This document shows, in pieces, positions 34,172-62,948 of a DNA stretch of 64,000 bases. The first letter of the stretch is position 1; every line of letters begins with the position of its first letter. This DNA comes from Marsupella aquatica (Eukaryota; Plantae; Marchantiophyta). The notes below the pieces were generated by a model. The model did no database searches, was not told the DNA's origin, and was given only the letters and a program-made list of their open reading frames with translations. The DNA lies in the NCBI GenBank assembly GCA_973895155.1, contig OZ316891.1:2803801-2867800 (forward strand). Direction: 5' to 3'. The position numbers and the translations under genes are program-made.

Positions 34172-36611
34172 GAGATGGTGCCCCAATTATTGTAAAACAT
34201 AAATGGCCGTATCTCGATCGTTTGACCTCCGCTTGTGCATCATTTACGAAGCCGTGATCAGGAAGAGCAGGGTTACCCAAGTATTTTTCAGAAGTGAATT
34301 CTGAGAAAATTATATTTTTGACAATTGTTAGGGGCCCCTCTTTTTGCAGCGGACGGTAGTGGCAATCAGGAGGATGGTGATCGATGAACATGGTTGTTCA
34401 TATCTTAGGGATGGTCTGTGACAAATTGACAGACCCAATGCCTTTGGACACCCATACCTCAAGGTGGAAACAATAACATGCTATCCAAGTGAAAGGTGAC
34501 ATTTTTTGTTTTAATTAGGTGATTATTCCAAAAAGAGAGTTAAAGTATCAAAATCATAAAATTTTAAAATTTTAAAGTTTTTATAAGGCCCTTTAAGCAA
34601 ATTTAAGTTAGTATAAGCTCAAATGGGTAAGGATACCATTGGAAGACGTCAAGGCTACTCTGGTTTTCACATATTGGACGTCCATGGCGGCCGGCAGTAG
34701 GGCGCGAGCTTCGACCCTCAGTGCTCACTTGTTAGACCACCATTCGAGCTCATTTCAATTGCTATAGGAGCGCAACTGCCTAGAGAATGTTCACCCCGAT
34801 TCTGAACTGCCATTGATGAGACGTTGAGGAGTATTGGGTCATCGATGCTCTCTGATTTCTTAGAATTGAAGAAATTGCAATTTCAAGAGCTTCACTTGAT
34901 TAAAGCTCCTTCATTTCTATCTCTTTTCAGTTCATTCCTTCTCCCATAGTAACGCAGCTACCTTAGATCCCTGAGATTTCATTCTTGAGCCTCCATGCTT
35001 AACCATTTTTAGGAGGAGAGCTCTAGAGCCTTCTCAGATTTTCTGACACTAGAAGAAACCGGCCCATTCTGAGACCCTGCCTTAAGTGACTCTAATGAGA
35101 CCTTGCAAAATTTGTGACTCCTAGGTTTTGGGTGTCATTATAGTTACAAGTTGTGGACTGAGTTTTGGAGAATTCTTGGGAAGTCATTTCTATAACTATT
35201 GGGGAAGTTGCAACTATAACTAAGTTCAGCCAACAAGAATGAAGTTGTATAAGTGACTCCCTCTACAATAGAGCGTTATATATGTAAGAGAGCCTTAGGG
35301 TTTAACACCACAATCTAACCACATTTGACCCCGCCCAACACATACCATTTAGGATATATCCTAATTTTCTTAGTTGTCAATGGGACTAAAGGAGATGCCC
35401 TCGGGATATTGTGTGAGTACGCAACTCTACAAGGTAAGTAAAGGTCCTTGGTCAATGTCAATGCTAACAGATCTCAAATATATACTCTACATTAGAGTAG
35501 ACTGAATTACAACATATGTATGCCACAAGTTTACAAGTGTTACAACATAACAAAATAATCCCAACTAGCTAGGGTCCCACAATGGCATGCATGTAATATT
35601 AATTGGACTCATTTTTGTGTCTAAATGGGTACATTTGAAGTTATCTCCTTGGTTATCTCTAACTCTCACATATGCAAGGGCAGGTTATTTTTACTTATTG
35701 CACGCCATGCCATGCATACATACCGTCATGTACCCCCTCCACACATTGTTCCATCTAGATTCCTTTAATTAAAGGTTCAAAATCACCAAGAACTGGGAAT
35801 GCAGCTGGAACCTCCATGTACTTGGCATGTCTACATGTTATAATTAGACATATCTGATAATGGCACCCCACACACTATGCTCATGGAATGAGCATAAGAA
35901 CTTGTGACAGTCCTTACCTTAATTAATCAAGCAAGGATCTGACGGTCGTAAACTTAATCAAAGGATGATCTGACGGTTGAAAACAAATATGGGCACATTA
36001 AACCAGGTTTAGGGTTTAATGGATTCCTTCACGCCAACTCCCATTGCGCCTTGGATTCCTTTGGATTTGCGGACGAGGAGCTGATCGCGCATTCTTTGCG
36101 AGGGAAAAAAGGGGGCAGTTTGTCGATCACTAAGGCTGAAGCTGCATTGACAAATTGCAATCCCGACTGCAATGGGAGTAGTAGGAGGCAAGAAGAGCGA
36201 GTTTAGGGTGTTGCATAGACAAAACAGAATGTGAGTCGTAGGCAACATTCAGCCATTGTATGTGTTTAGCATTGATCATAGGCACTGTGGGAGGCACTGC
36301 AGGAGGCGTTTGCCACTGCGCAAGGCACTGTAGGAGGCACTTGTTCCTTCAAGCTGGGAGAGTCAATTTGACGTTCAGCTGCAACCTGGGATCGAGAACC
36401 AGGAGCTTCTCATTGCGGTTTGGTGTGCATTTGGACTGTTCTTGCAAAGTGGGACTCCAGGCCTGGAGACATTGCATTGATCGCCTTTGGATGTACATTG
36501 CAGTCCGACTAGGAGGCTTTCAAGTGGAGCTGGGTTGGAAGTGAGTTGAAGATTGAGTTGCCATCACATTGCAATAGCGGGGGATTGTTGCTCAGCTTCA
36601 CATACTGCTAC

Positions 36612-38162
36612 GGATTACTACGCAGCTTCAGTTTGAGCGGCTTGGTGCTGCATCAGCCCATGTAAGGCTGCAATCCCCTATCTTTGCTATGTGACCTCGC
36701 GGCTGCAAGTTTGGTTGACTTCTCTGTGCTGTGAAGCTGTTTTTGACTCAGGTTCCGGCCAAGTTTCACCAGCGCAAATTTTTCTAAACATGAGTGTGGG
36801 CTACAACTGGTGAGGTGGAAGGGATAAGAAAATGCGCTACCGTCATTGACAACATCTCAACCTTTTACAGTGAGCGCTATTGACATTCGGCCAGCTGTAA
36901 GTGTATTTCAAGCTTGACTTTAACTTGCCATCTGCATGAACCGGCTTGCAATAGATGTTGTAGCTTTTGCTTAGCTGCATTCACCTCCCAAGATGCCCCG
37001 TGACATCCAGGTTTGCACAATGAGATAATAAGGCTGAAATGATAAGGTAGTGATTGCCAATGGATAAAAAGCTTTATGAGAGTTGCTTCAACGTTCAGCT
37101 GCAAACTAGGATTAGGAACCAGGAACTTGTCGCGGCAGTCCAGCTTGTTTACTTGGAGCCGGAGCTGGAGTCAAGTTTCACATGTTTCTTGTTTAGTGAC
37201 AGAGTACTTCTGAGAAATGTGACAGCCCCTGTGAGAGCTTTCGGCACCAGTGAGGTAAAGGGTGTTCTTACTCATGCAATAGTCACTTTGACCTTCTGAG
37301 TTTCAGCAAATTGAGTTTCAAGTGCGGGCACTGAGAGTTGACCTGTTTGAGCTGGGGTCACTGAGAGTTGAGCTCTTTGAGCTACGGTTACAGAGAGTTG
37401 AGCTGTTTGAGATGCGGTCTCATAAGTGAACTAGATCCTCCCCCGTGTAAACGTCTAGCATAGTCACATGTCCAAGCTTTGCTTTTGACTCTGAATATAT
37501 TCACTGTCAACCATTGAAGGAGCTACGTGCATGAATTGTCTACTTATTGGGTTGTTTAGGGATTCAATATACAAAAATGACAACTTGAGTAAGGCAGTCT
37601 ACGGAGGCGCGAAAGAGTCGCGAGGAGTCGAGTTCAGCTACGGCAGTATTCACTTCAGTTGTCTCAATGTGGTTGGCGTGAGCTGCAGGTGAGCTTAGCT
37701 GTGTGCACATTTCATGTAAGTCAGGTGGTCGGTGTTTTAGGCATTGCGGAACTTGATTGACCACCCCATGGCTAAGGTTTAAGGTGCAGACTACAACAAA
37801 CATGTGTTGTTGCTGAAAGTGTTGGTGGTGAGCGACAACTGGTATTGTTTCAGCTAAAGGGAGCACATTGGAGCTTGTGTATCCATGACCTACGACCGAT
37901 TGCGGTTGCCTGCTGTTACAATTGCCGAATCAATCACGCACCCAATCTTGTGGGCAGACACAACTTTGCGGGAGTGTTGAAGGTTTAGGGTGAGCAACAG
38001 CGGAGAGCTCATTGCTTGGTGGCAGGGTTGAAGGTGGATGATCGGGCTGCAAGGCCAACCGGGGACTTGTTTTGCATTGAGCGATTGCTGCGGATTGCTA
38101 CGCAGCTTCAGTTAGGGCGGCTTGGTGCTACATCGGCACAGGTAAGGCTGCAATCCCCTATC
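36612..38162. repeat. Internal direct duplications in the CACTA leader region
   Basis: A ~70 bp segment GGATT.CTACGCAGCTTCAGTT...GTAAGGCTGCAATCCCCTATC occurs at 36612 and 38092. A 30 bp unit C.GAGAGTTGA.CT.TTTGAG occurs three times at ~37331-37420. Confidence 0.75.
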
Positions 38163-38716
38163 GACGCGGACTCACCTCGTGACTGCAAGTATAGTTGTCT
38201 AGGTGATGTATGCATTGCGTGTTTAGGGTCTAGGTGACATCGCTGCTAAGCAAAATTTGTGAGCTGCCTAGGTCCATTGCCGAATGTTGCTTCCTTTAAA
38301 TTACCTGGTGCCTGCTGTTACAATCGCCTGCTCAATCATGCACCCAATCGCCTGGAGCTCATTTGCCTGGAGCTTCATCCGTCAGATTCAAACTGTTATT
38401 GCTGCTCTGCCCTTTTGCCATGGGTTGCCGGCCTACCGGATGCTATCAACAGATTAAGAACAAGTCATATCCTAAGTCCCGGTGTTGCAGTGATGTCCCC
38501 GACCCTAAGATGCTTTCCAAACTCATCTTTCTTGTTTCCTGTTGCTGCTGATGTATGTATGTTCTCCCCTATTTTTGCTTACAGATTGGTCTCTCCACAC
38601 TTCTTGCTTGACATGATTGTTTTGCTCCTCCCTGTATCAGAACATGCCTTGTGCCCGGCGGTGGGGTGGGGGGGTGAACAGACGACCTTAAGGTTCACTA
38701 CATTTCTAGGAACTGT

Positions 38717-38877
38717 GCATCTTTCAGCTGATTTTAGCCGCAAGTTCCCTTGCTTTCCCCTGTTTTTGCTAAGATCCCTCCCACTAATCACATGCATCTT
38801 TCAGCTGATTTTAGCCGCAAGTTCCCTTGCTTTCCCCTGCTTTTGCTAAGATCCCTCCCCACTAATGACATGCATCC
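38717..38877. repeat. Two ~76 bp tandem copies
   Basis: GCATCTTTCAGCTGATTTTAGCCGCAAGTTCCCTTGCTTTCCCCTG.TTTTGCTAAGATCCC..CCCACTAAT.ACAT occurs twice. Confidence 0.9.
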
Positions 38878-40066
38878 TTTACTTTTCTCGGTGGCCCGTG
38901 CGCCTGCCTTCCTACTTTCGTTCTTATGGACTCTCCTTAGGTTTTCATTCACCTGGTTTTGGACTTTTTGCTCCGGTGGAATCTGTCTTGACAACTTGTG
39001 TTTGTTCTAATTGTTAATATCTCAAGAGGGTCGTCAACTAAGCTGAAAGGAGTCAAAGCTAACTACAAGCTAGCAAAATAATACAGAGAATGCTCCCAAG
39101 TCGAGTCAGGAGGAAGTTACTAAAACTAGACCTTCACAACTCTCGAAACTGGAAAGTGAAATTCAGCGTGAGACACGTAGCTGAAGGCCACAAGGATAAC
39201 TATATGGCCACGCTGTCCCCCATTCAAGTCCAAAGTCCTCTTCAGATTGTCTGAACTCCTATTGAATGTATTGAATAATTATTTCATCACAGAAATTTTC
39301 AGAACAAACACGGAAGCACCAGGGGGCTGAGGATTAGGTATTGAGGCTGAAGACATTGAGGTCATAAACTAGGTGTGGTTCGGGTGACAATGTTAGCAAC
39401 TGATGCTTCTTCAGGGGAACTTCCCATGTGCAGTTTATCCACACATGATTGACTTTGGTTCTTGCTGTTTTTCTTTTGGTGTACTCTTGAGTTTGGTGTC
39501 ACTCTATCCTTTCCTGTAGCCTCGAAATAGGAACACACCTGCTTAGTGGTCCCCAATCGCCCAATGATTTATAATGACTGTGTCTAGGTGATGTATGCAT
39601 TGCGTGTTCATTCCAGAAGAATGAATATGTACACTTTGCACAAACCTGGACAGATTTTGAATGTTATTTATCTGAGTTTCTGTTTGTGAGCTCTGACTTG
39701 GAGCCTTAACATTTGTGTTTCTGTGGGGCTGAGCAGAGTTTGTTCAGTCTAGAAGCTGCTGTACTGAAGTGATCAGCCTCCGGCTTGGAGGTGAATCTTC
39801 AATTTTTTGTGGATCCGAGTGACTTCTGTCCAACTGAGTTTTGCTTTGTCGGGACGATTGTGTTTGGCTAAGATGCTAGATTGTGGCTTGTCTTCTTGCT
39901 TCCAGCTTGTGTATTTTCAATTAATAGAAGTTGGGAACGAAGTGATAATTGAATTTCCTTATATTAAGCATCTTCACCTAGAAACTCAATACATAAACTC
40001 CAGGATTCCCTCGGGACATAAAATGAGCCAAATTGTCTCAAAATTGGGAACCTGCACCCGCACTAC

Positions 40067-40409
40067 TCAAACAATTGTGTTGGGCTTGGTGGCCTTGTAA
40101 GTCTTCTTTAGCTTTCGCAATGGAGGTTGAATCTTGCAGTACGTCAAGGGGAACTTGATCTTTGAATCATGGAACTGCTTGGTACTTTCTCGCTTGCACA
40201 GAGAGACAGGGACTGTCGTAGTCTTCATGATCTAGATGCAAGGGAACCGAACTCTATGACAAGAAGCCATCTCATCATACATCTGCTCTGCAGCTCCGTT
40301 TCTTGTGGTATCACAATATTCCTTGTACATGTTGTGATAACCTGTACGACTCTGATACGTGGACCCAGATACCGAAGTTCTTAATTGTGGTGGGCTTCTT
40401 TTTGAAGAT
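40067..40409 (-). pseudogene. RPL18A: Captured last exon of 60S ribosomal protein L18a (eL20), decayed
   Basis: Reads [15 protein letters not shown], then a frameshift, then [70 protein letters not shown]...[15 protein letters not shown]. One frameshift and one internal stop. Confidence 0.9.
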
Positions 40410-41417
40410 TTGGTAGACACATTATTCAGCATTTGCTAACTTCGAAACTAGAAGGGTAACACATTAAACAACAGAGAAACTCACAACATCCTCCTTTGGT
40501 CCTTCAGAGTCTGTACTTTGATTCTGAAGTTTGACTGAGTTTTTGTTTACTAAAAGAATGTGACTGTGTAAGAGTTCCGTTTGGCAGTGGATTGGTTGAA
40601 GCACTTCATGCTAGTGTGTTGTCCACAGCTCTTCAACCAGCTTTCGTCTTCCTTGTCTTTCACCACTTACGATGACATCAATTCAGCTAAGACCATAGAA
40701 GGTTCCAAAGCATCTAACTTGTAAAATCGCATTCTGTTACATCAAGGACTAAGGTGTTGGGTGCCAAAGGAGACAGCACAACAAACACGCTGAAAAGACT
40801 TCAGGACTGGGTTCAACAAGGTAGTGAAGGTGCTTAGAGCCATAGTAAGTATGCATTCTGTATCTTTCTCTATTGATGTGAGCTTGTGCATAATGGGAGT
40901 TGTAGTTGGCAAGAGTTCCAAATATGAATAGATCCAGAAGTATGTGATCATGTACTTGCTCTATAAAGTTCTGAAGATATAAGCATTTTCTGTTAGACCA
41001 GGCAACTTGGGAGTTGGTAAGTGTCACCTGCATCTGAGGGGCTACACCGGGGCATCAGTGGAGGTTCACTTGCACAACACGACAACCAGTGAATTTTCTC
41101 TCTGCTGCAACCTGCAAGGTGAGACTTTCGGTCTTTCTGGATGAAAAAACAGGAGTTTAATATGATTGATATACATGTCCGTCGAGAATATGGGTTTATC
41201 ACCAAGCTCTTTGTCTTAGGAAACTCATAAACTCAGAATCAAATATGTACTATGCACGTTTCATGCTATGTGTATACTATGACCTGTAGTTGGAACCAAG
41301 ACAATGAGTGGGAACTGATTAGTTTAGGTGGTTGCTGTTGGCGAGGCAAGTCGACCTCCTGCTCACCTTGCTCATCAAAGGACGTGAACAGAGGACATCA
41401 CAACGAAAGCAACACTT

Positions 41418-41867
41418 ATGGTGAGGACCCGCAACGCTGAACATGTGCGACTTGCACGCAAGGCAGAGATGTTGCGCCTTGAGTATGTCAGACTTGGGAT
41501 CCTTCCAGCCCAGTCTGCATGGTACTTTGAGTACCCTGTTGTTTCTAGGAACAACTACAGCCGGCCTCTACCTGCTTCAGTACCCTTCCCGACATCCTTG
41601 GTATTTGTGTCTCTTGTACATGACCCGCCACAAATTAGGTGCCAAGGGTGTGTACACAGTTGCCAATATGACTGTCCTGCCTGTAGGGCTTCTGGCCCAG
41701 AATTGGATGACCGTTCTCTTGGATGCCGATTTTTGCACAGAGCACAATGTATCATCTGGAACCACTTGCCATCCTGCAGTGTGCCTGGTGATGTCACTTG
41801 TCCTGCCCTCCCAGACCCCACCACCGGTGACTTTGGTGTCTACACATGTTTGGATCACATGCTCTAG
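41418..41867 (+). CDS. Cys/His-rich atypical PHD-like zinc-finger protein (149 aa), CACTA cargo
   Basis: ATG-started intact ORF with CQGC..CxxxCPAC...GC-x7-CIIWNHLPSC...YTCLDH, which fits a C4-H-C-C-x2-H PHD-like spacing with a WxH motif. Confidence 0.55.
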   Translation: MVRTRNAEHVRLARKAEMLRLEYVRLGILPAQSAWYFEYPVVSRNNYSRPLPASVPFPTSLVFVSLVHDPPQIRCQGCVHSCQYDCPACRASGPELDDRSLGCRFLHRAQCIIWNHLPSCSVPGDVTCPALPDPTTGDFGVYTCLDHML

Positions 41868-42564
41868 AGGACCACTTGTCACACCGCATGCACAGACCAG
41901 ATACCATTGACCTATAGCTTAACACTCTGACTTCAACACAGAGGATATTTACTTAAAATTTTGATGTATGAGCAATTTTGGGTCCAGGGTTTAGGGTCAA
42001 CAGTACATAACTTATATCCTATTATGCCTGCACTAAGCAAAATATCCTAATTTAAGAGGCTAGCAAACTCGCATAAAAGTCTCTATTGAAAGACTGCTTT
42101 CATGACTGCTTTAACCTGTGAACATTGCAACGTTGAATGAATTAATGGGCCATGTGATAATATGCAAAATGATTTATGCCTCACTTATTTGTCTCAGCCA
42201 CTATCATAACCTATTTAGGATGTATAAATTTCAACCCTTATGACACTGCTTCATACCAATCCTCTTCGAAGAATGCCTGTTTTACATGTCACGACTATTG
42301 TATGTGATTCAAATGCATGAAATGTTGTTGCAGATCTCCTTTGGTGAATCATAGCCACAATTAAAATTGAGGTGTTGGTGGAGAAATTGTATTAGGGGAT
42401 CAGTTTTGTGTGTGGGCTCAACATACCAAAAGTATGTGTGCTCTGCATCCTTGTGTGGCCATTCCAATTCATTGCAGTAGCAAATGCCTTTGTACCTTAA
42501 ATGCTAAATATATTTTACTTTCTGTGCAGTCTGCTAAATTGTAGAGTCTATCTCATGCGCAGGC

Positions 42565-43245
42565 ATGGCACGGCCTAAAATTCAAGCCAAAAAGCGTGTG
42601 ACAGAGGTGAGAAACACAGGTGTACTTGGGGCAGATGCTACTAACTTCTCTGCAAGTCAGATTTTCCAGAAGGCAGCTCATTGTTGTGCCATTTGTGACG
42701 ATGGTGGGGGCCTGGTCATTTGTGAGGGCCCTTGCATGAGGCATTTCCACCTCAACCCGGAGTCTGACCTTGCTGCAGAAAACAACTGTCCAGGGGTGGG
42801 CCTCCCGTCAACACACCAGGGAGACTGGATGTGCACTGATTGTTTGGAGAAGCAGGCTAAGTGTGCACAGTGTGGGAAGTTGGGGTCCTATGAGGGCTCT
42901 GTTGATGCTGCAGCAAATGTTAGGAAATGTCCAGACCGTTTTTGTGTGAGATTTTTCTGTTTTGAGTGTTTGCCTGCTCATGCCACAGCTTGCCCACTTC
43001 ATAGGTGCAAGGCATGTGGTGAGCATGATGATGACTACTGGACTGACATAGTCCACTGTGCTAGGTGTCCCACTATGTGGCACTATCATTGCCTGAAAGA
43101 TCATCAAGCAGAGGGTTATGCTTGTGACAGAGAAATCTATGATCACTCTGCACATGGTGTTGATCGATGGATATTTTATTGTCATCGCCATGCCATTGAT
43201 CCTACCTCGCGCACTCCTGTGAGAGATCACATATCTTGGCTGTGA
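42565..43245 (+). CDS. Stand-alone EDM2-like triple-PHD finger protein (226 aa), CACTA cargo
   Basis: Intact ORF with CAICDDGG.LVICEGPCMRHFH, WMCTDC...AKCAQCGKLGS, CPLHRCKAC, CARCP..WHYHCL and FYCHRHAIDP...TPVRDH. This is colinear with the EDM2 PHD region as I recall it (CAICDNGG..CEGSCLRSFH...LGSS...CPLHKC...CRRCPKSYH...YC..HEID...TPVRDH). Confidence 0.85.
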   Translation: MARPKIQAKKRVTEVRNTGVLGADATNFSASQIFQKAAHCCAICDDGGGLVICEGPCMRHFHLNPESDLAAENNCPGVGLPSTHQGDWMCTDCLEKQAKCAQCGKLGSYEGSVDAAANVRKCPDRFCVRFFCFECLPAHATACPLHRCKACGEHDDDYWTDIVHCARCPTMWHYHCLKDHQAEGYACDREIYDHSAHGVDRWIFYCHRHAIDPTSRTPVRDHISWL

Positions 43246-43837
43246 AGCTGAACATTGTACATGCACAGTGCACCTGATGTGGATGTACTATTTTTTGAGA
43301 TTGCAGAGATTCCAATTTTGAAAAGGAGTTGGGTAGGCGAGTTTATATAGGCAGCACTTATCTTGTGCTCTGGCGTCAGTGGCTGGGTACATGCCTATAC
43401 AAACTTATCCTTACAAGCCTTCTTGGAAGTATTTAGGCTGAGTGGTCATTTTCATAAACACTTTCATCACACTGCTAAATTAAAACAGGACTTCTAAATT
43501 GTAAGCGTATAAATTATCAGGCATGCAATTAATCAAATTGCCCTATAAGTTTGTCATTGAATGTATCCTCCTTTACAACAAAATATGTATGTGCCATGAC
43601 AAGTTGGTTGCACTTCATTTCACCACGGATATGGATTTTGTAGTATATATTCAAACAATGTCCTGCATCCGTGCAGGTGCCTAGTACGTATTGTTCACAT
43701 ATCCCTTGTACCTATCAAAATCGGACCTGAGCACCAGTGGGCCAGATCAACTCAAAAAGCAGGAATTTTGTTGTCCTTGTATTGTCAGGTGAACCCATTC
43801 TTCCAAAATTCACTGTCATCACGTAGGGTGTGTGTAC

Positions 43838-44710
43838 ATGGAGCCTGGTAAACGTAGAAAGTGTGACCACCCAGCAGTGTTTACAGGGGTCAGAGCGATT
43901 TTGGTCCATGGCCAGCATGGGTTGACCAAAGTGCATTGGCCAACTGTACAGAAACGATTCTCTGAGCTCCATGGCACTGTAGTTCAAGACATCACTCCAG
44001 AGACTACACATGTTGTTGCAGGGACATGGCTATCAGTGATAAAGAAGTGGTCATGGTCCTACATGAATTCTGCAATTACTAAGCAAGGCCTAAAAGTAGT
44101 TGAGGCCTCTTGGATCACAGATTCCATAGCACATAAGATTGTACAGGATACTGAGCAATATGAGTTGTGGGAGGATGAAGAAGCTACTGCATCAGCTTGG
44201 GCTGAACAAGAAGTCTGGGAAGCAAAGGCACGGCTTGCTGATCTCCAATATGGACCTGTACTCAACAAAGGACAGAGCTCTACAAGGCTGAAGAGTATGT
44301 TGGCTGAGGAGACGAAGCAACCAACCCCCATTCTGAAAGGGCTGAGCATGGTATTTGTGGAGGCGGGAATTGGAGAGGTTAAGTGCAAAGTGTACAAGTC
44401 CACAGTGCTTGACCTAGGTGGGACAGTGGAGGAGAATATAACAGAGGACACCACTCATGTCATTACTAAGTCATATCCCAAAGCCTGCCGCAAGTTTGGG
44501 AAGGGAGACATTCGCTTTTATGTCATGTCCCATAATGTGTTTGTGGTTTCATATGCTTGGCTTGTGGAATCAGTAGCAGCTGGGAAGCGTCAAAACCCAA
44601 TGGACTATGATCTTTTTGAGGCCTGGCCACGGAAGGGTCAGGATCCTTACAGAGAGGACTATGAGACAACAAGTGAGGAATGGGTCATTAGCGATTCTGA
44701 ATCAGAGTGA
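43838..44710 (+). CDS. Tandem BRCT-domain protein (290 aa), CACTA cargo
   Basis: Two BRCT repeats: FTGVRAILV...LHGTV...TTHVV...VVEASWITDSI...YEL and LKGLSMVFVE.G...LGGTVEE...TTHVI...KFGK...VVSYAWLVESV.AG...YDL, followed by an acidic tail. Confidence 0.85.
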   Translation: MEPGKRRKCDHPAVFTGVRAILVHGQHGLTKVHWPTVQKRFSELHGTVVQDITPETTHVVAGTWLSVIKKWSWSYMNSAITKQGLKVVEASWITDSIAHKIVQDTEQYELWEDEEATASAWAEQEVWEAKARLADLQYGPVLNKGQSSTRLKSMLAEETKQPTPILKGLSMVFVEAGIGEVKCKVYKSTVLDLGGTVEENITEDTTHVITKSYPKACRKFGKGDIRFYVMSHNVFVVSYAWLVESVAAGKRQNPMDYDLFEAWPRKGQDPYREDYETTSEEWVISDSESE

Positions 44711-45143
44711 GGAGTAGTAGCATCAGTTTGGACACAAGTTTTTTTGTATAAATCAGATCATTGAAATAAATGTGATCTTTGAACTAATGTACCTTGTTAT
44801 GGTTGGTGGCAGTTGGGCTTATTTTACTGTTGGCGGATTGTTGTTTCCTGCTGCCTGGGGGTGTCACTGTAAACGTACATGCAGAGGCGGTACATTTGAG
44901 GACAGCGGAGGAGGTGGTGACACCCTCCAACATTTAGAAATTTTGTGTCATTCACTTGACAATAGGTACACTACTTGCGAACCTGTTTTTTTCTTTTGGG
45001 GTGGTTTAGGGTTTGTGAGAATTTAGTACACGTTATGTTAACTCTTTTGGCAGATACAGTCAGGGATATATGGAACACAAATACCACCATTAGGCATCCT
45101 TGTTCACTGCTGTCCATGACTGCAGAGCTCCCAGCCTGTTACA

Positions 45144-48100
45144 ATGCACCCTGGTCACCACCCTCCCCAGACCCAGCCCAGGGCACAGGCACTGCCTTTG
45201 CATCATCCCACAAGGATATCACGCCATGATAATAAGCTTTGGCAGCGTGAAAGGTTACGAACCAGACTTTCAGGAGCCAGTAGGATGAGATGTCCTTGTG
45301 CAATCTGCCAAGGATCCCGTACCAGGGGTCTGAATGAGGTTTGGCGGCATATCGCGGTTCATGGAAGAGATCCACGACATCGAGTTTGGAATGATCCTGC
45401 AGAGGAAGATTCTTCCGACGAGGAGTGGAGGTTAGAATTTGATGCTGCCAATGCTGCAAGACGGGCAAGTAAGGTTCTGCCTGGTGCATTTGAAAATGTT
45501 GTAGCTGGTCTCTGTGGGTTGTCAGCTCTCCAACGGGATGGTGCTCAGGCAGCACCACGTGATGAAGGAATTCATGTGGAAGAGATGGTGAGAGACATCT
45601 TCCAAGACTTGGATGCATTTCATGATGGGCTGGACAATGAAGAGGATACGGTTGCAAATGCAAGTGTGCCCCCTGTCAAAGAGCCTCTTGATGAGTTTGA
45701 GATAGGGCAGGAAACCCCTGGGCATGATGGGATGTTTGGCTCTCCCCTGCAAATACAGGAAGGCAGGAAGTCTTTGTACCCCGGTAGCAAATGTTCTAAA
45801 CTGGGATTTGTCATCATGTTCCTGAACATTTGCGGCAACCACAATGTCCCCAACGTTTTGGTTTCTGAGTTGTTGGCATTCTTGCGAACAACTGTGCTAC
45901 CAGATGGTAATATTTTGCCCAAGAACATGTACGAGGCAAAAAGATGCATATCTAATCTTGGATTGAACTATGATTCGATCCATGCCTGTCCTGATGGGCA
46001 TGTTCTTTTCAGAAAGGAGTATAAAGAATCGTTGACATGCCCTAAGTGTGGGAAGCACAGGTATCGGAACTCAGGAAAGTCTATGGTTCCCGCCAAGGTA
46101 CTTCGTCATTTTCCACTCATTCCCAGACTTCAGCGGATGTTCAGAAGCCGTGCCATCTCGGAGATGATGACTTGGGCAACTGACAAGAAAAGTGATGATG
46201 GGCTACAACGACATGCTGCAGATTCAAGGCAATGGAAACTCATAGATGAGATGTATCCCGAATTTGCTGCTGAGCCGAGGAATGTCAGACTTGGGCTGTC
46301 ATTGGATGGGGTAAACCCATTTGGAGACAAGAACAACAAATTTTCATGCTGGCCTGTAACTATTTTGAATTATAACCTTCCTCCTTGGATGACTACAAAG
46401 CGATTTTTTGTTCTGATGGTCCTACTGATACCAGGGCCAGACAGTGCTGTATCTGCCAACATAGATGTGTTTCTGGCTCCCCTAGTGGAGGAATTGAGAA
46501 ATCTTTGGGAGGAAGGAGTTCTCACATATGATGTCCTACAGAGGCTTGGGAGGTTAAACCCATTCATCCTTAGAGCCATTGTCATTCTGACTATAGCTGA
46601 CTACCCAGCCCATGGGATGATATCAGGCCAAACAACAAAAGGATATTGTGCTTGTACTATCTGTGGGCGCAATGTCACCAGTGAGTACTCCAGAGCCCTG
46701 CAGAAAGTGATATACATGGGCCATCGTCGTTTTCTAAAGACAGATCACCCTTACAGAGAAAGACAGGCACTGATTGCACACTTTGGCAATGAGATTGAGC
46801 AACGTGGACCCCCGGCACGAGTGACCAAAGAGGAGATCAGGCAGTGGGGAGCACTAAGGGATGACTATATCAAACGAGGGGGCAGGGAAGATGGAGTGAG
46901 TGATCCAATAAAGCGATATGGTGTAAAAAGACTGAGCATATTGGACTTGGAGCTCAAGTACTGGAGGGTAAGCCTCTTGGAGTTGATGCTAATTGGGATA
47001 CATGTTTTGGTTCAGAGCATGTGCATTCATTTCGAAGAGAGAGACTAAACTTGAGGCATTTCCTGACGCTTTTGCATTGCAACGATGCAGGAGTTTGAGC
47101 CAAGCAAACATAACATTGATGTTATGCACATTGAAAAGAATATTTGTGAGAGTCTACTCAGATTCTTGTGTGGAGAGAAAGACACTGGTTCAGTGAGATT
47201 GGATCTTGAACAGAGGGGAATGAAACCCCATCTTTGGTTGAGGCCACATGCCCACAGAGCTGATGTGCTCTTGAAGTACCAAGCGCCCTATGTTCTGACA
47301 GACACAGAGTGGGAACTATTTGTGCAGAGGTTGAGTTCTTTGAAGGTTCCTTCAAACTATGGCAGTGCTTTCAAGAAGCATATCATGACTAGAAAGCTTG
47401 GTAGTATGAAAAGCCATGACTACCATATGTTGATGCAACAGGTGTTGCCTTTATGCCTGAGGGGCCTGTTGCAGAAGCCTGTTCGTACTGTGATCATGCG
47501 ACTCAGTGATGTGTTTCGTCGTATTTGTGTGAAGGTTTGGGATGAAACACACTTCCCACAACTGACAGAAGATGTCGCTCAGGTGCTGTGTGACCTGGAG
47601 ATTTATTTTCCTCCCGCATTTTTTGATGTCATGACCCACCTACTTGTCCATGTTGTGGAAGAGCTACACCAATTTGGGCCTGTGAGTGCTCGTTGGTTGT
47701 ACCCTTTGGAACGGTACATGAAGCTACTCAAAGGTCACGTGAGAACATATTACAAACCTGAAGCAAGCATGGCTAAAGGTTACATCAAGGATGAGACTCT
47801 GGGATTTCTGACCGAATACATAGCACAATATGAGCATGTGAAGACCAGGGTGTGGAATTCTGATGAGGAGGAAGGGGTGGTAGGTGAAGTACTGGAAGGG
47901 GCTGCAACCACAAAGAACCTGACCATATCTATGAGAGACTTGGCACATGACTTTGTATTGCACAACACTGTGGTGATGGAACCCTGGATACAGTGAGTGC
48001 ATACATGTGCTATAATCCAGTTCATGAGCTTAAATGTTGTGTTCGTGTGGTTTTCTCCTTCAGCCTGTTCATGTTTACCCAAGCTAATGCTGTGTGGTTG

Positions 48101-48875
48101 TTCGTTCAGGGAGTATGAGTCATTGAAGGCGGCCCATCCCACTGCAGGAACAACTTTTCCAGGTTTCATGGAGTGGATCAGAGTGGCAATTAGAGAGCAT
48201 CACGAGACCCACCCAGACATGGATGCAGATGTTTACCTACTGTCTAATGCCCCTAGCCTGAAAGTGAAGACTTACAAACGGATGAGAGCATATGGGAATC
48301 ACTTCCGAGTGAAGGATGGTGACAGTGCCTACAGGGTGACGAATGACTGCGGGCTCATCACTGTATTTGAGCAACAGAGCCACAATCACAACAGGGCCTG
48401 GATGGAGATGGGATATGTGGGAGAATTAGTTGACATATGGGCTCTGGACTATGGGGCGGTGTCCAGTCCTGTGATTCTTATGAAAGGTTCATGGGTGCGG
48501 CAGGATTGGCTTGCTAACAGGGCTACCATGAAGAGAGACAACGACGGTTTCTTGCTGGCCAATTTCAGAGGGAAATTGCCCGAATGGTCTGAGCCATTTG
48601 TGTTTCCTAGTCAGGTGGAGCAAGCTTTCTTCCTGGATGTGGAAGACTCCCCAGGTTGGCGTGTAGTGTGTCATAAACAGGCCAGGCAACGCCGGATGGA
48701 AGGATCAAACCTTGAGTTTCATTTACACTCTCATAGTGCCTTTGATCGTCGGCGTTCAGACCAAGTGCCTGTAGTTCATGATAGCGGGGACTTCATTCCT
48801 GTGACAAGGGTAGATGCATTTGCTGAAGGAGGCGAATTCAGAGATGCAGATGCCAACAGTGTGCCTGTGCCATGA
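45144..48875 (+). CDS. CACTA TnpD/TNP2-type DDE transposase (~1160 aa, 3 exons), apparently intact
   Basis: Exons 45144-46967, 47091-47992 and 48110-48875 are phase-compatible. Motifs: N-terminal CPCAIC..HIAVHG, IHACP..CPKCG, LRHFPLIPRLQRMF, LSLDGVNPF, IADYPAHG, HNIDVMHIEKN, MKSHDYH, FPPAFFDVMTHL, YPLERY, EPFVFPSQVEQAFF. The exact start codon is uncertain. Confidence 0.95.
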
Positions 48876-49031
48876 GTAATGTAAATTGTTTGCATAGACA
48901 TTAGTGAGGGGAAGGATGTGTAATAAAGTAATTCTGAAGCAACACAGATGTATGGATGGATGCCTGGTGATTGTGGTTGCATTGTGTTATACGGGGTGAC
49001 CATAGATGACATGTTTTTGTGGTCCAGTAGG

Positions 49032-52000
49032 ATGGAACAGAGTGACACAGAGATGTGTGAGTATGAAAGGAAAGCTATGGAACAACGAGCATACGTGAAA
49101 GCCAAAATCGCAGAACTGGATCTGGAAAAGGATGTGGCTGAATTGTAAGGGAACGATTCTCAACTACACCCCTCCGCTGAGTTTGTGTGACATGAATAGT
49201 TCAATGTGGCACTGAAATTGTGACTGTATTCTCATATTGGAATGTCGCAGAGCCACAACATTTTCAAAGAAACAAAAGGAGTACGCAAGAAGGGTGACCA
49301 GCACTATCTCTGGGCCTGTGCGTCGGAGTGACAGGTTGAGCAAGAAGGTCGTACCTACAATGGCAGAATGTGGAGATGACATTGATGCTGCACAGGTGGG
49401 TGCAGACACTAGACAAGAAGATGCAGATGATGAGTATTTTCCAGAGGAAATGGATGAGGATGGGGGTTATGAAGATGAATACATTGCAGAGCAGCCCCAA
49501 AAGAAACATGTAAGTAGTTTTCCCAACAAGGTTTTGAGTTAAAAACTCTTGTTTAGAGGTTTCATATGTTCAGTACTACACATATGTACCTTGCTTAGTT
49601 CCTGACATTGTAGTTGGTGATGTGATGCAGCGTCCTGCCAGTTCTGTTTTGCCTTCGAAGCCTGTGCATGCACCATACCAGCAGGGGGGGCTGACCTCTG
49701 ATCAAGGTTGGCGAGGTGGTAGTAGTGGTAGATCCCAGGCTGGTGCCCAATACTATGGCAGGGGGCAAGCTCTAGGTTATGCCCGTGGTAGAGGCAGAGC
49801 AGGTCCAAACCCACAATCTCGTGGGTATGGACGTCCACCTCAACCGTGGGGATGTGAGTATATATCTATATGCCAGTTCTTTGTGAAGGCATGGCACTCC
49901 TGAATTTCAGACTGCATATCAATTTTTGACATTGTTTGGGATGTATTGGATTCAGACAACATGAAATTCTGTCCACCTGCCATTGCATGCAGATTCTGCC
50001 CAACCTGATTGGGCAAATGCTAGTAATGATCAGTTCCAATGTCCACAAGGACAGACATGGGTTGAACCAGGTTGGGAGGATGGTGGTGGGTCGTGGAATG
50101 AACAAGGTTGGGAAGGTGGTGAAGGTAATTGGCAGGGATATCAAAATACAGTACCTACAAACGCTGGAAGAGGAGCAGGTAATGTCTGATCTTGTCAGCA
50201 ATGGAAGAACTCATTATATGTGGAGTCCATTCACGTGGGGGGGACTCTGCACATGTATAATGATAGAAAATGTATGTGTGCAGGTTGGACAGTTGAACCA
50301 TCGACTCAAGTATTCACTAATGCCCCTATGCAGATGCAGCACGGAAGGGGGACAGGTATGTCGGTGAATGTTCAGTTGTTTTCCTACAGTTTGTACTTAG
50401 TTTTCAGTACATATGTTTGCACACACATACCTAGAAAGTGACATCATCCGGCCCCTGTACTAGGCTGGACAGGTGGTCCAGGGTCGCAACAATTTTAGAG
50501 TGCAGTCCCTGCACAGGCATCTACAGGCAGAGCTACAGGTATGTATGTTTGAAGAATTTTTCTTGAAGTGAAGCATTGAATGTTGCCGTCATCCATTCTG
50601 CTATATGTAGTTCTCAAGCATGAATGGCATTGTATTTTCCCAGGTGGCTTCAGAACCCCAGGTAGGGTGAATGAAGGGGTGGCCAATACAACGCCCAGTA
50701 CTACCGAGAGCAGTGCACGAGGGGAGGTGACAAAGAAAGGGAACGTAAAGTTGAATGAGAGACAATGGGTGGATGCTGAGTGTCCTCGCAAGAACCGATG
50801 GCATGCTGATTTGAAAGCTGAAGTATTGCGTTGGTTAGATGTGAGTGTTATTAATTTTAAAAAACAGCATCCAAAAGATTGGAAGACTGTATGTGAAAAT
50901 GTTGCTGCCAAATGGAATTATGTGGGCAGTGATGATGGCGTGGACATAGGTTGCCTAGAGAGTACAGCAGGTAAAATTATCAAGCAAGAGAGGTGGAGAA
51001 TGCATAAGGCTTGGAAGGAAGGTGGGGAGAAGCCAGATATGCCTCCACCAGCCAGTTGTGATGATAAAGTGTGGGCAAGGTTAGTAGCTTATTTTGTAAC
51101 AGATGCTTCAAAAAAGAAGAGTTCACAGATGACCGAGGCCAGGTTGAGTGTTCAGAACCCTAATCTGACAGGAAGGACCGGCACTGCACCGACAGCTAAA
51201 CGTTTGGTAAGAATGAATGGCCTAGCTATGTAATTTATGCTACACTATGTACTATTTTTTAGTGTAAACCCATACATGTAAACTTTGTTTTTTAGTGTAC
51301 GTTCCCTGAATATTGATCGATAACTTGTGTTTGCCATGCATGTGCAGAAAGCCCAATTGGGGCAAAGCCCTTCAAAAGAAGAGTTGAGGGCTGAAATTGT
51401 GAACACCTGGGCTCAAGAGGGTGCATCTGAATCCTCCAAGCATGTAAGTTATATGAGTTCTGATTGGTAATTGAATGACCTGCGTTGAATTTCAGGTGTA
51501 CACTGTATATAACATTGATTGTGCATATATTGCCCAACATTTCATATGGAGTGATTGAACCTATACCCCTGTGTCATGTAGGGAGGTGGATCTTCACTTA
51601 CAGAGATAAGTGGTCGTTTGAAGGCTGTCGAAACATGTCTTCCAGAGATCAATGAACGTTTGAATTCATTGACTGACTTGTTCCATGTGAACTTCAAGAC
51701 ATTAATGGAAGCTGTTGTGTCGGTGAGAGATAAAATTGATTCCAATTCTGCAGGAGTTCCACCATCACCACTTGAGGTGGCAAAGTTGATGCACTCTTCT
51801 GGCATGCCAACGACATGTAGGCTTGAAGGTAAGGCCTTTACAACTGTGTGGGATATGATTATTAAATGTATAGTTTGAATTGACATTGTTTGTTGAATGT
51901 GTTATTTTCAGTAACATATATTGTGGTTGTTGTGTCCATAGAGAATAAGACAGGTGCTACAGAGAAGAAGTATGAGAACCTGGCAAATACTCGCTGTAAT

Positions 52001-52738
52001 TTAGAGGCAACAAAGTTGCAGTCTGTACAAGCAACTTGTTTGACAGAGGGCAGTCAACCATGTTTGGATGAGGATGACATTGGCAAGGGAGTGGATGATA
52101 TCAATGTTGGGGCAAATGAGGATATCAGCAAGCATGACAATGATACCATTGAGCCAGATTCATGCTATGTAGATCTTGACTCCATTGCAGAGATAAATGA
52201 TTTGCAGAATGTATCATTCTCAATGACAGGTGTGCCTCTTGTTGAGATAAATCCAACCAAAGAGCTAGTTGGTATGACACTCCCAGGTGATGAACCTGCT
52301 ACTGTGACAGTCCTAACAGAGGAACCTACTGAGCCTAGCTTCACTACTGTGAAGAGAGGAAGCATGCGCACACGAAGCAAGTCTGCTGGTGGGAGCAGAG
52401 TCACGTCAAAGGTTTCATACAAACCTCCAAGAACAGTGCTGGCAGAAAGATCTAAGGTGGAAGTGGGGAAAGCACCTAATGCTGAGGGACAAAGTGGCTT
52501 GTTAGTTGTTGATGAGAGTGGAACACGAGTAGGATTTGCCAGAGTGCAGGTTGGTTCCACAACGTTCCATGGCAAGAGGATTCCCCCAGGTTATTCAGTA
52601 GTGTTAGTCACATTACTAGTGAAACCTAAAGCTGTCCTTCCCATTCCAAACACAAATGATGATCCTCCTCAAAAGACACTTGGAGATGCTGCAGGTTCTT
52701 TGGTATTATGGCCAAGCAAGTTCATAGAGGATCCATAA
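49032..52738 (+). CDS. CACTA TnpA/TNP1-like protein (Ptta/En/Spm-type domain), 10 exons, ~876 aa, with one in-frame stop in exon 6
   Basis: Exons 49032-49144, 49251-49509, 49631-49853, 49993-50178, 50284-50355, 50464-50538, 50644-51206, 51348-51443, 51582-51828 and 51942-52738 are all phase-compatible. Motifs: EYERK...L.L start, W..LV.YF.T...KKKS...EAR..V.NP..TGR, and C-terminal HGKRIPPGY..V...LP.P..DD....LGDA.G..VLWP. TAG at 50496-50498. Confidence 0.8.
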
Positions 52739-53593
52739 CAATGTCATGCCATTATTTGTTTGTAGTGTGAGTCATGTTATGTAGATTTTAGATGTCAAGA
52801 AGCAGTACAAGAATCATGTCCTCTTGGAGATTCATAGTATCATGCATGTGCTTTCAGTTATCTCATCCTACAGTCATCAATTATGAGTTCCTGTTTTGTC
52901 TAAATTACATTGATCACATTGTAAACTATTCCATTGGAATTCAAATGATCTTCATTTTTTAGCAAGATTGTGATTGTGTTTAATTCTTATGAATGTTTTA
53001 TGTAGGATCTGCTTATATGATGCTTTGTTTCATGTGGATGTCATTCATGCTATGTTCATTTCTTGTATTCAATGTGTTATATTTCTAAAGTTAGAACATC
53101 AGGTTTCTATGTATTGTAATGTCGAGTGCTCTCTCTTCTTATGAACTGTCCCTCTGTGTTCATTAGTCATGGTTATAACTTGCATGTGAACCTTATTAGT
53201 TATAAACATGAGTATATAGAGTCCCAAATGGTTCTGTTGTGTGACGCGGGCCAGGGTCTCCATTGGTCTCTCCTGTGACACTAAATAGTCACACGCTAGT
53301 CGTTGTTGAATGCGGGTAAGTCATGTATGTGACTTACGATGTGACTCGCTGAAGTCATATTGCAGTCACGTCGAAACAAGGCTAGACTCCACAATAAAGT
53401 CACAGATCAGTCACAAATGGGTATCAAGCAAGTTGCAAAGCCCAGTATCAATAGTGACTTCCATTTTTTGGTCTCAACTTTTGCAACTCCAAGGGTCACA
53501 GCGTGGGTCAAGTCACGTTGAGTCACAATGAAGTCACATGAGCCAAAATGAGTCATATATTGCGGTCTCAGTTCACCTCGGATTCTTCTAGTG

Positions 53594-54074
53594 CTCGTAG
53601 GGGTCTGCAACTGAGGGTCAATCGTATGGAGGTGGCAATACAAAAACCACCTATCAACCCCGTGTGCAGAGTGGGAATAAATTTGGCGGTCACATGCATA
53701 CCCTTCTACCTCAAGGGCTAGTAAACACTCATGGTGCCAGGCTGTGGGACATCTGGGACAATGGACCATGTCTATCCAGTAGTCATCATCAGGCTCCCCA
53801 CAAGCAGGACAAATATGTAGTGGGCAAAGGGAGTTATCATGGGGCAGCCATGTCAAACAAAAAAAACGAACACAAAACCTGTCAGGACATTTCCACAGCT
53901 CTGGTTGATCCCCCCCAACAGTGCCATTTGTGCCACATTGAGCACACGTGCTGATATTAGTGGCACAATCAAAGCAAGTCCAAGCACCCCGATCGTCCCC
54001 CCGGACCCCAGGGCATGCATTTTGTGGTGCATAAGTGGACCAGGAATTGACATGGAATTGTCTCAGACAGGGAC
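53594..54074 (-). pseudogene. Second copy of the EDM2-like PHD cargo gene, frameshifted and truncated
   Basis: Reads PCLRQFHVN...NACPGV...WTCFDC...TCAQCG, then a frameshift, then KCPDRFCVRFFC...CPLHICPACGEPDDDYWIDMVHCPRCPTAWHHECL...EGYACDRQIYSHSAHGVDRWFLYCHLHTIDP..QTP. It stops at the TIR of element A. Confidence 0.9.
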
Positions 54075-54174
54075 ATAAAATCCAATCAAATATCCCAAAT
54101 AACCCCTAGCCTATCAACCCAACCCAGCCTTAACATCCTATCCACCACATCCTGTAAATTGGTTTGTCTTGTCA

Positions 54175-55545: not shown

Positions 55546-56494
55546 GTCTGCAGGAGAGAGGACAATGAAGAGCGGAGACGATGGACGAGCGAGACCGAGA
55601 GAGAGGGCGAGAGAGAGCGAGGAGAGAATTGAGCAAGAGAGGAAACCCTGTAGAACTCAGGGAACCCAGTAGAACTTAGCCCTACCGTAGCATATCAAAG
55701 AGAAAGAAAGCAAGGCAATAGCAGCAATCAGACCCTACCGAGAGACGGAGATGACCAGCACCGCAGCTCAACTTTGTAGAGGTGTTGGAGACTACGATGA
55801 CCACAGCTTAACACGAGCTTTGCCAAAGTCAACAAAGTAGCAACCCGCTCCTCCTGCTAAGCCGCGCTGCACCCTAGCTGATTCACAAAGACTACGGCAC
55901 CTTAGCTTCACGGATTGAGGTGGATTCAACAGCCATAGCGCAACGTGATAGACCTCAACTCCAATGCTACACAAGGCTTCGCGCAAGGCAAAGAGTAAGT
56001 CTAGGGCGCATTTGCGCATTGTCACTTTCTACAGGGAGCAAGCATTGTGATAGCAGACATGCAAAGCTCCATTCCAATGCTGCGCATGGCAAAGTCAGAG
56101 GTAAGTACTTACAAAGCAGATGGCGGAAGACGGACCCCCACACCACAAACTTATGCTCCGACCCTAAAATAACTGACCGCAATGCCCCCGCAATGCCTTC
56201 GGGGAGCACTCGCTCTCGCACTTAGCACTCGACTGAAAATCGCTGCCGTTGCGCTTCAAGTGTGGTCGTAAACACTTCCGCCTTCCTAAAAGCTCTAGTA
56301 AGAGTGGTAGCGAGAAGAAATCCCGACACACTCCTCATTTGCTCCTCCTCCCTCCTTGATCAATCGACTATCAACTATCGATAGTCACCTCATTCGCTCC
56401 TCCTCCCCTCCCCTCCCCTCGCTAAACCCTCTCTGCGGACGAAGACCTTAAACTTTCGCTCCCGCGCACAAGGGTGGAGAGTACTAATGTACTC

Positions 56495-62820: not shown

Positions 62821-62948
62821 CGATGTCATAATTTTCTCTTAAGTTATAAAAAATTGTTTGTTTTAATATGCTATAGATTATATAAGTAATTTAGTAGTTA
62901 GATTATTAAGTTTAGATTTTATTAAAACTCTTTAGCTATATTAACGGA

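What the first reader, a model, noticed from the sequence alone, without database searches (positions are those of the whole stretch)
35047..53593. CACTA transposon carrying a candidate accessory kit: PHD readers, BRCT adaptor and GW-motif TnpA
Seen: between matching CACTA TIRs lie five co-oriented genes in a row: an atypical PHD-like ORF, an EDM2-like triple PHD, a tandem BRCT, TnpD and TnpA. The three cargo ORFs are stop-free, whereas the neighbouring captured RPL18a exon is decayed. Established: canonical CACTAs encode TnpA/TnpD, and transposon-encoded anti-silencing factors exist (VANC of VANDAL Mutator elements; Spm TnpA promotes demethylation of its element). Inference: this family has recruited host chromatin-reader and repair-adaptor domains to counter silencing, choose targets or steer excision repair. 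I do not know of a described CACTA with this combination.
Basis: partly seen in the sequence, partly recalled or inferred. Interest (0 to 1): 0.92.

Follow-up and report, generated by a model that had tools for sequence, protein, structure and literature searches.

The report
CACTA transposon with three accessory genes
A plant jumping gene, apparently present in about ten near-identical copies, carries three extra intact genes (a histone-reader-type zinc-finger protein, a DNA-repair-type adaptor and a small unknown protein) that are conserved in distant relatives and likely help it keep working after the host has silenced it.

Summary
The element is real. It has CACTA ends with shared subterminal repeats, an intact three-exon TnpD, a TnpA-like gene and three intronless upstream ORFs. 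The cargo is not one-off debris. Unnamed full-length relatives exist for the PHD protein (5; 37-82%), the BRCT protein (2; 54-60%) and ORF1 (7; 31-58%). A second PHD copy in the window gives dN/dS 0.22. Contig depths in public runs put the PHD-to-TnpA stretch at about ten times single-copy depth.

There is no target-site duplication, and the left 2.6 kb is near single-copy. The GW motifs do not exceed composition (p=0.18). TnpA has a stop in a skippable exon. The RPL18a stop is private to this copy.

New lead: all six PHD proteins begin M-A-R, four with K4 and K9, like the histone H3 tail. Expression, gene order in other copies and function are untested. My paper searches found no CACTA described with this set. 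Verdict: new variant of a known kind; anti-silencing likely but unproven.

The parts
35047..35076 (+). Left terminal inverted repeat (CACTAG type) and start of the subterminal repeats
   Evidence: Exact 11-bp match to the right end, 22 of 30 bases identical; preceded by TGA
35077..35346 (.). Left subterminal region with GTGACT motifs
   Evidence: 3 GTGACT in the first 300 bases against 0.2 per 400 bases inside the element
35261..37900 (.). Near single-copy segment with internal duplications; probably copy-specific
   Evidence: Contig depth 164-166 in X1 and 304-311 in X2, against about ten times that in the core; repeats 36606-36720/38086-38200
40060..40445 (-). Captured, damaged RPL18a coding piece behind an AG acceptor; frameshift near 40362, stop at 40232-40234
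   Evidence: PF01775 E 3.7e-15; three-frame translation; stop base not shared by laid contigs
41418..41867 (+). ORF1, 149 aa: unnamed family with M-[VP]-R-[TM]-R start and invariant C78-x-H80-x5-C86-x2-C89, N115, C128; not a PHD
   Evidence: 7 full-length homologs among 11 hits; no Pfam match below E 0.04 in 8 members; hhalign to the PHD alignment probability 0.04
42565..43245 (+). Stand-alone EDM2/NSD-type triple PHD protein, 226 aa, with an H3-like N-terminus (A1, R2, K4, A7, K9)
   Evidence: PF23011, PF23004 and PF22908 below cut-off; 5 homologs of 217-245 aa; best longer hit P0008, E 2.2e-15; NSD2 E 9.5e-12
43838..44710 (+). Stand-alone two-BRCT protein with acidic tail, 290 aa
   Evidence: PF00533 E 2.6e-13, two stretches; 2 homolog clusters of 294-295 aa, 54-60% identical
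45144..48875 (+). TnpD transposase; exons 45144-46967, 47091-47992, 48110-48875; 1163 aa, open
   Evidence: PF13963, PF02992 (E 1.8e-70), PF13960, PF13952; GT-AG model without internal stop
49032..52738 (+). TnpA-like gene; predicted ten exons, 876 codons; G/W-rich low-complexity region; TAG at 50496-50498 in a 75-bp exon whose skipping leaves 851 aa open
   Evidence: PF03004 E 1.5e-4, below cut-off; splice model
53194..53593 (-). Right subterminal repeats and right terminal inverted repeat
   Evidence: 10 GTGACT in 400 bases; followed by CTC
53596..54072 (-). Outside the element: truncated second copy of the PHD gene (diverged subfamily), cut by the right TIR about 7 codons before its stop and lacking its 5' part
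   Evidence: 56% amino-acid and 71% nucleotide identity; dN/dS 0.22; HMM positions 47-210 of 217 only

Best explanation
This is a CACTA DNA transposon with an intact transposase gene and three extra intact genes that are likely long-standing, selected parts of the family and likely act as a chromatin-and-repair accessory kit that keeps silenced copies usable. Shown: the ends, the five reading frames, the diverged full-length homologs and dN/dS below 1 for the PHD pair. Inferred: TnpA binds the GTGACT subterminal repeats and TnpD cuts, as in Spm. Inferred: the PHD protein is the histone-reader module of a host EDM2-like gene, stripped of its other domains. It would dock on H3 tails of the element's own heterochromatin, as EDM2 does on H3K9me2, and so allow the five-gene unit to be transcribed and processed despite silencing marks. 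Inferred: the two-BRCT protein would engage host break-repair factors at excision or insertion sites. ORF1 is predicted to be a small zinc-binding partner that travels with the PHD gene. This particular copy looks rearranged at its left side, so it is a view of the family, not a clean insertion.
For: Selection. PHD versus the second window copy: 158 codon pairs, pN/pS 0.42 (bootstrap 0.31-0.55), dN/dS 0.22. 18 Cys/His positions are invariant in all 7 aligned PHD sequences. BRCT homologs keep length and both repeats at 54-60% identity. ORF1 homologs keep length and motif at 31-58%. Of the 12 indels listed (171 found), 10 fall in the cargo span and 0 of these 10 in the ORFs, which cover 61% of it. 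Family membership. Single near-identical contigs in run X1 have 9.4-10.8 times the depth of 35962-37484, both at 43299-43847 (PHD-BRCT spacer) and in TnpD; X2 gives 10-14 times for TnpD and the 3' end. All 30 bins are covered in runs of three organism labels, 27 of 30 in a fourth. CpG observed/expected is 0.23-0.36 in the cargo ORFs, like TnpD (0.39) and below the host gene at 13828-15861 (0.63). A second CACTA end at 56927 points towards the second PHD copy, 2.9 kb away. Reader chemistry. E54 (Asp in the five homologs) aligns with AIRE D312, which binds H3R2, and the G-x-W before the last zinc pair is invariant. Precedent (passages read). EDM2 binds H3K9me2 and suppresses proximal polyadenylation (PMC7529245). 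Spm TnpA activates elements while H3K9me persists (bioRxiv 10.64898/2026.08.24.746577).
Against: No contig spans the element or bridges two cargo genes by 31 letters on each side among the 32 pieces shown (5470 not shown), so gene order in other copies is inferred from depth, which the tool warns is no copy number; X1 may be the window's own sample. The genomic context of all homologous proteins is unknown, so some could be host genes. The K4-binding AIRE D297 position is His in 5 of 6 proteins, and the acidic stretch that precedes the PHD in P0008 is absent, so the mark read may differ from EDM2's. The protein lacks all other EDM2 domains, so it may be unable to recruit the polyadenylation partners. 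The indel count uses only the best-supported 12 of 171 rows. The TnpA model of this copy has a stop, and 6 of the 8 listed differences from laid contigs in TnpD/TnpA change a residue. No target-site duplication.
Confidence: 0.45

Rival explanations
1. The PHD protein is a targeting factor: it would tether the TnpA/TnpD complex to a chromatin state and so choose insertion sites, with no effect on silencing.
For: A reader with no effector domain suits a tether. The element's right end sits inside another copy of the PHD gene, and other CACTA ends lie at 56927 and 63418, which fits insertion into transposon-rich chromatin. PHD domains occur in 5 of 1846 active MULE transposase clusters (PMC12973397 Table S6).
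Against: One insertion site is no distribution, and host genes lie within about 6 kb to the left. No interaction with TnpA or TnpD is known.
Confidence: 0.25
2. The PHD protein (and perhaps ORF1) works mainly through a histone-H3-like tail, as a decoy or switch for host H3K9/H3K4 writers and readers.
For: All 6 PHD proteins have M-A-R at the start (internal Met in P0003); 4 of 6 have K4 and K9, in three lineages only about 40% identical, with shuffle chances of 0.04, 0.04 and 0.13. ORF1 starts M-[VP]-R-[TM]-R in 8 of 10 sequences.
Against: The pattern was noticed after the fact; P0002 and P0003 lack K4 and K9; basic N-termini are also ordinary nuclear localisation signals.
Confidence: 0.13
3. 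Pack-CACTA: the three ORFs are passively carried copies of host genes, and the signal of selection comes from host gene families or from the time before capture.
For: The element does capture host DNA (RPL18a piece), and that piece lacks the stop in laid contigs. Pack-CACTA capture is described (review PMC13317346, passages). The context of the homologs is unknown.
Against: None of the cargo homologs (5 PHD, 2 BRCT, 7 ORF1 representatives) carries a functional name; all come from Logan or JGI contigs under 3 kb. The second, selected PHD subfamily is itself at high depth in X2. The ORFs run from their own ATG to their own stop, with lengths kept across 30-80% identity.
Confidence: 0.1
4. The 18.5-kb unit is a composite: an ORF1+PHD module that moves with several families, joined here to a BRCT-TnpD-TnpA element.
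For: Summed depth over ORF1 and PHD (X1 7492 and 5889; X2 31481 and 36603) is well above that over BRCT and TnpD (X1 1820-3632; X2 7463-13457). There is no target-site duplication and the left segment is near single-copy.
Against: Both ends carry the same subterminal motif. The contig starting 54 bases after the PHD stop and reaching the BRCT start has the same depth as TnpD contigs. Extra depth could come from deletion derivatives or from related families that lack close TnpD matches.
Confidence: 0.07

Closest known systems
En/Spm (CACTA) elements with separate head-to-tail TnpD and TnpA genes, e.g. Arabidopsis EN/SPM2, 5, 6, 9 (PMC13547354, passages)
   Same: CACTA ends, subterminal repeats, TnpD domain set, TnpA-like gene downstream in the same orientation
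   Different: Three further stand-alone genes upstream of TnpD. In a survey of 775 active plant CACTA clusters, Table S6 lists no PHD row and one BRCT-type row (RTT107_BRCT_5, a singleton) for CACTA (PMC12973397)
VANDAL Mutator elements with VANB/VANC and KIU (Ulp1) accessory genes (PMC13547354, PMC13317346, passages)
   Same: A DNA transposon keeping extra genes co-opted from host chromatin proteins (VANC resembles MAIN)
   Different: Different superfamily; VANC recognises DNA motifs, whereas this cargo is a predicted histone reader plus a BRCT pair; no function tested here
EDM2 (Arabidopsis ASI1-AIPP1-EDM2 complex)
   Same: Atypical PHD repeat; the match to P0008 includes the C-terminal YC-x-H-x-ID-x5-TP-x-RDHI stretch
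   Different: Only the PHD module is present (226 aa against 1339 aa in P0008); no RFD, acidic, PGR or methyltransferase-like part; new H3-like N-terminus. Calling P0008 EDM2-like is my inference from its domains
Pack-CACTA / transduplicating CACTA elements (PMC13317346, passages)
   Same: Carries a damaged host fragment (RPL18a)
   Different: The three main cargo ORFs are complete, conserved in length and, for the PHD gene, under purifying selection

Membership tests
CACTA/En-Spm superfamily | Short TIRs starting CACTA/CACTG | tested here: met
   CACTAGAAGAA at both ends
CACTA/En-Spm superfamily | Subterminal repeats at both ends | tested here: met
   AGTCAC 13 times in 800 terminal bases, 0.5 expected
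CACTA/En-Spm superfamily | TnpD transposase (Transposase_21 with DUF4218, DUF4216) | tested here: met
   PF02992 E 1.8e-70, PF13960 E 4.8e-28; open 1163-aa model
CACTA/En-Spm superfamily | TnpA-like second gene | tested here: inconclusive
   PF03004 E 1.5e-4, 22 bits against a cut-off of 28.7; no PDB match; tandem HTH not modelled
CACTA/En-Spm superfamily | 3-bp target-site duplication | tested here: inconclusive
   Flanks TGA and CTC differ, but they are not two halves of one target: the right flank is a cut PHD gene whose remainder was not found left of 35047. No other copy with flanks was available
EDM2 protein family | Repeat of atypical (EDM2/NSD-type) PHD fingers | tested here: met
   Three sets of zinc ligands; P0008 E 2.2e-15 against an NSD-like protein at 9.2e-5; NSD2/3 best in PDB
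EDM2 protein family | Acidic, PGR and methyltransferase-like (ELP) domains | tested here: not met
   All six proteins end a few residues after the PHD module; the protein is EDM2-derived, not an EDM2
EDM2 protein family | Binding to H3K9me2 | not testable with these tools
   Needs peptide binding assays
PHD finger (ORF1) | C4HC3-type set of eight zinc ligands | tested here: not met
   Only C78, H80, C86, C89 and C128 are invariant in 8 sequences; C74, C103, C122 and C146 are not; no PHD Pfam hit; hhalign probability 0.04
Tandem phosphopeptide-binding BRCT | Two BRCT repeats | tested here: met
   PF00533, two stretches in 3 of 3 proteins
Tandem phosphopeptide-binding BRCT | Phosphate pocket and packed tandem fold | tested here: inconclusive
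   The Lys of RKFGK in repeat 2 aligns with the Lys of BRCA1 ERTLK and is kept in 3 of 3; the model failed (pLDDT 36.5)
GW/WG Argonaute-hook proteins (TnpA N-terminal region) | Excess of GW/WG dipeptides in a G-rich low-complexity region | tested here: inconclusive
   6 in 186 residues, shuffle mean 4.0, p=0.18; 10 Trp in the region
VANC-like anti-silencing factors | Element-specific loss of silencing when expressed | not testable with these tools
   Needs transgenic tests

The most novel reading that the evidence does not exclude
A plant CACTA family has turned the host's own heterochromatin reader EDM2 into a transposon-encoded anti-silencing protein, fitted with a histone-H3-mimicking tail, and ships it with a dedicated repair adaptor and a new zinc-protein family: a five-gene transposon with histone-level counter-defence.
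Probability: 0.2. Interest if true: 0.92.

Novelty: new variant of a known kind. Interest (0 to 1): 0.72.

Why it matters
The transposon counter-defences in the papers I read (VANC, Spm TnpA) act through DNA motifs, and one of those papers calls such adaptations rare. A CACTA family that keeps a histone-reader module, a BRCT pair and an unnamed protein under selection would show a transposon acting at the level of histone tails and break repair. It gives three small, intronless genes that are easy to test. It could also explain how a multi-gene element is expressed while still carrying H3K9 methylation, and might supply a chromatin-guided insertion or de-silencing tool.

Tried and rejected
No genome is held for this window, so copies could not be collected. 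No RNA holder was listed; this says nothing on expression. A second read-laying on the cargo region did not complete. Metagenome scans with the PHD and ORF1 alignments found no locus, nor did a TnpD scan of viral contigs. The BRCT model failed. The ORF1 model (pLDDT 64) gave no Foldseek match at E 0.001 and a best Z of 4.7 among 48,161 chains; the Atlas gave no usable hit for ORF1 and generic BRCT clusters below 0.9 for BRCT repeat 2. Complex prediction for PHD plus ORF1 was not available. From memory, BRCT repeat 2 resembles the BRCT of plant DNA polymerase lambda, which binds XRCC4 and LIG4 (PMC4444747, passages). PDB searches to E 10 listed Rtt107, BRCA1, TopBP1, microcephalin and REV1 but no polymerase lambda, so the donor stays unknown. 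Four of the 11 ORF1 hits (P0014, P0016, P0018, P0019; short Cys-rich stretches in repetitive or very long proteins) were left out of the alignment. Three EDM2 primary papers were not held. Exact look-ups of the three cargo proteins found none in the collection. Look-ups in earlier scan notes by sequence and place were empty. Rejected: ORF1 as a PHD; the GW count as evidence for an Argonaute hook; the RPL18a stop as a family-wide control.
Full report
1. The observation. The window holds exactly two perfect matches to CACTAGAAGAA, at 35047 (+) and 53583-53593 (-). The first 30 bases of the two ends agree at 22 places. Both ends are rich in one motif, AGTCAC/GTGACT: 13 copies in the 800 terminal bases against 0.5 expected; 3 in the left 300 and 10 in the right 400 bases. 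The ends therefore belong to one family. The flanks are TGA and CTC, so there is no 3-bp duplication. The right flank is a second, diverged PHD gene on the minus strand, cut about seven codons before its stop, and its remainder was not found left of the element. This copy has thus been rearranged at one side or is a recombinant.

2. The transposon core. TnpD has three exons with GT-AG ends and is open for 1163 codons, with PF13963, PF02992, PF13960 and PF13952. Downstream, a ten-exon model gives a TnpA-like protein of 876 codons with a weak PF03004 match. It has one in-frame TAG (50496-50498) in a 75-bp exon; skipping that exon leaves 851 open codons. The G-rich N-terminal region has 6 GW/WG pairs in 186 residues; shuffles give 4.0 on average (p=0.18). 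Ten tryptophans in such a region remain unusual, so an Argonaute hook is neither shown nor excluded.

3. The PHD gene. It encodes 226 aa without introns. Five stand-alone homologs of 217-245 aa were found among 123 candidates (37-82% identity). Eighteen Cys/His positions are invariant in the seven aligned sequences. Among longer proteins the best hit is P0008, a Zizania protein with RFD, PHD and methyltransferase-like domains (E 2.2e-15), ahead of an NSD-like protein (9.2e-5). The match to P0008 includes the distinctive C-terminal stretch. I read P0008 as EDM2-like from its domains; the source does not name it so. Against the second copy in the window, 158 codon pairs give pN/pS 0.42 (0.31-0.55) and dN/dS 0.22. 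In the first finger, E54 aligns with AIRE D312, which binds H3R2, while the K4-binding D297 position is His. All six proteins begin M-A-R (internal Met in P0003), and four have Lys at positions 4 and 9, as histone H3 does (A1, R2 and K4 from PMC2261226; K9 by nomenclature; A7 recalled). Shuffle chances are 0.04, 0.04 and 0.13 in three lineages about 40% identical; two proteins lack the pattern. This was noticed after the fact and is a lead only.

4. The BRCT gene. It encodes 290 aa with two BRCT repeats. Two homolog clusters (5 sequences) of 294-295 aa are 54-60% identical over the whole length. PDB and Atlas searches give only generic BRCT matches, and the model failed, so donor and ligand are unknown.

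5. ORF1. A full HMMER search gave 11 hits; seven are full-length relatives of 144-200 aa (31-58%), and four were left out as repeat-like short matches. Invariant positions include C78-x-H80-S81-x4-C86-x2-C89-R90, N115 and C128; four other cysteines of the window's copy are not kept. It has no Pfam family and no likeness to the PHD alignment. It is an unnamed, probably zinc-binding family and not a PHD. Eight of ten sequences start M-[VP]-R-[TM]-R.

6. Copy number and linkage. Four of eleven listed runs were laid (four studies, four organism labels). In X1, single near-identical contigs have depth 164-166 at 35962-37484, 859 at 39259-39675 and 1554-1782 at the PHD-BRCT spacer and in TnpD, a ratio of about ten; X2 gives 10-14. 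The tool warns that depth is no copy number, and X1 may be the window's own sample. Summed depth over ORF1 and PHD is higher than over the rest, which suggests more families or derivatives carrying that pair. No listed piece spans two genes, so order in other copies is inferred. Of 12 indels listed (171 found), ten lie in the cargo span and none in its ORFs. A joint from 42729 to 54072 (depth 184 in X1, 2108 in X2) suggests that the second PHD subfamily has intact 5' ends elsewhere. The RPL18a piece has a frameshift and a stop here, but all laid depth in the four runs shows another base at the stop, so it is a weak control.

7. Mechanism. Shown: anatomy, conservation and selection on the PHD pair. 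Inferred from Spm: TnpA binds the subterminal repeats and TnpD cuts. Passages of bioRxiv 10.64898/2026.08.24.746577 report that TnpA activates elements through host demethylases while H3K9me persists. Passages of PMC7529245 report that EDM2 binds H3K9me2 and suppresses early polyadenylation. A five-gene element with an AG acceptor in front of each ATG (TnpA start corrected) needs read-through in such chromatin. I therefore think it most likely (0.45) that the PHD protein keeps silenced copies expressible and that the BRCT protein handles repair factors. Target choice (0.25), a histone-mimic decoy (0.13), passive capture (0.10) and a composite unit (0.07) are the rivals. That the cargo genes are selected members of the family, whatever they do, I put at about 0.8.

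8. What is known. Searches for CACTA + PHD finger + transposase + captured and CACTA + BRCT + PHD + transposon found no paper. Listings for EnSpm + PHD, transposon-encoded + PHD + CACTA, EDM2 + CACTA + PHD and histone mimic + transposon showed no title on this; I read passages of five of those papers, and one more is also on the list; none described it. One legend lists a PHD among domains of active Chlamydomonas elements without my seeing which. Table S6 of PMC12973397 lists, for 775 active CACTA clusters, no PHD and one BRCT-type singleton (section 2.3 read). PMC13547354 and the Spm preprint have no occurrence of PHD or BRCT in their main text; the preprint surveyed 962 Spm proteins, and its supplements could not be seen. 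Repbase and most subscription journals were not searchable. The element works like a CACTA with VANDAL-style accessory genes; it is not an EDM2 gene, and no function is shown.

9. Verdict. A real, apparently recently amplified CACTA family with three conserved accessory genes; new variant of a known kind; interest 0.72.

Noticed in passing
window 53596-56927: A second CACTA end (CACTAGTAGAAG, minus strand at 56927) points towards the truncated second PHD gene 2.9 kb away; the DNA between has duplicated segments and no match to the main element. Possibly a relic of a related PHD-bearing element.
   Followed up: partly
window 63418-64000: Left end of a third CACTA element; its first 37 bases are 79% like the main left end. 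It runs off the window.
   Followed up: partly
window 41288-49031: Each of the five start codons has a pyrimidine-rich AG acceptor shortly upstream, and N-terminal extensions of P0003 and P0020 contain F-L-Q, as a translated acceptor would. Suggests one leader spliced to five genes.
   Followed up: partly
window 60400-62900: Decayed Copia-type retrotransposon coding fragments on the minus strand (integrase, reverse transcriptase and zinc-knuckle-like ORFs; named from recall), next to a 19-bp tandem array at 62950-63197.
   Followed up: no
window 58305-59847: Inverted repeats (109 nt, 79%; 55 nt, 82%) enclosing about 1.3 kb with a 149-codon ORF at 59312-59761 that has no Pfam match.
   Followed up: no
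window 6500-29450: Host genes recognised from their translations (names recalled): a MATE transporter, an intronless 678-aa NOC2-like gene at 13828-15864, a ClpP subunit and RPS5.
   Followed up: no
window 49032-52738: If the host is not a flowering plant (not determined here), this TnpA-like gene would bear on statements in PMC13547354 and the Spm preprint that TnpA-like proteins are restricted to flowering plants.
   Followed up: no
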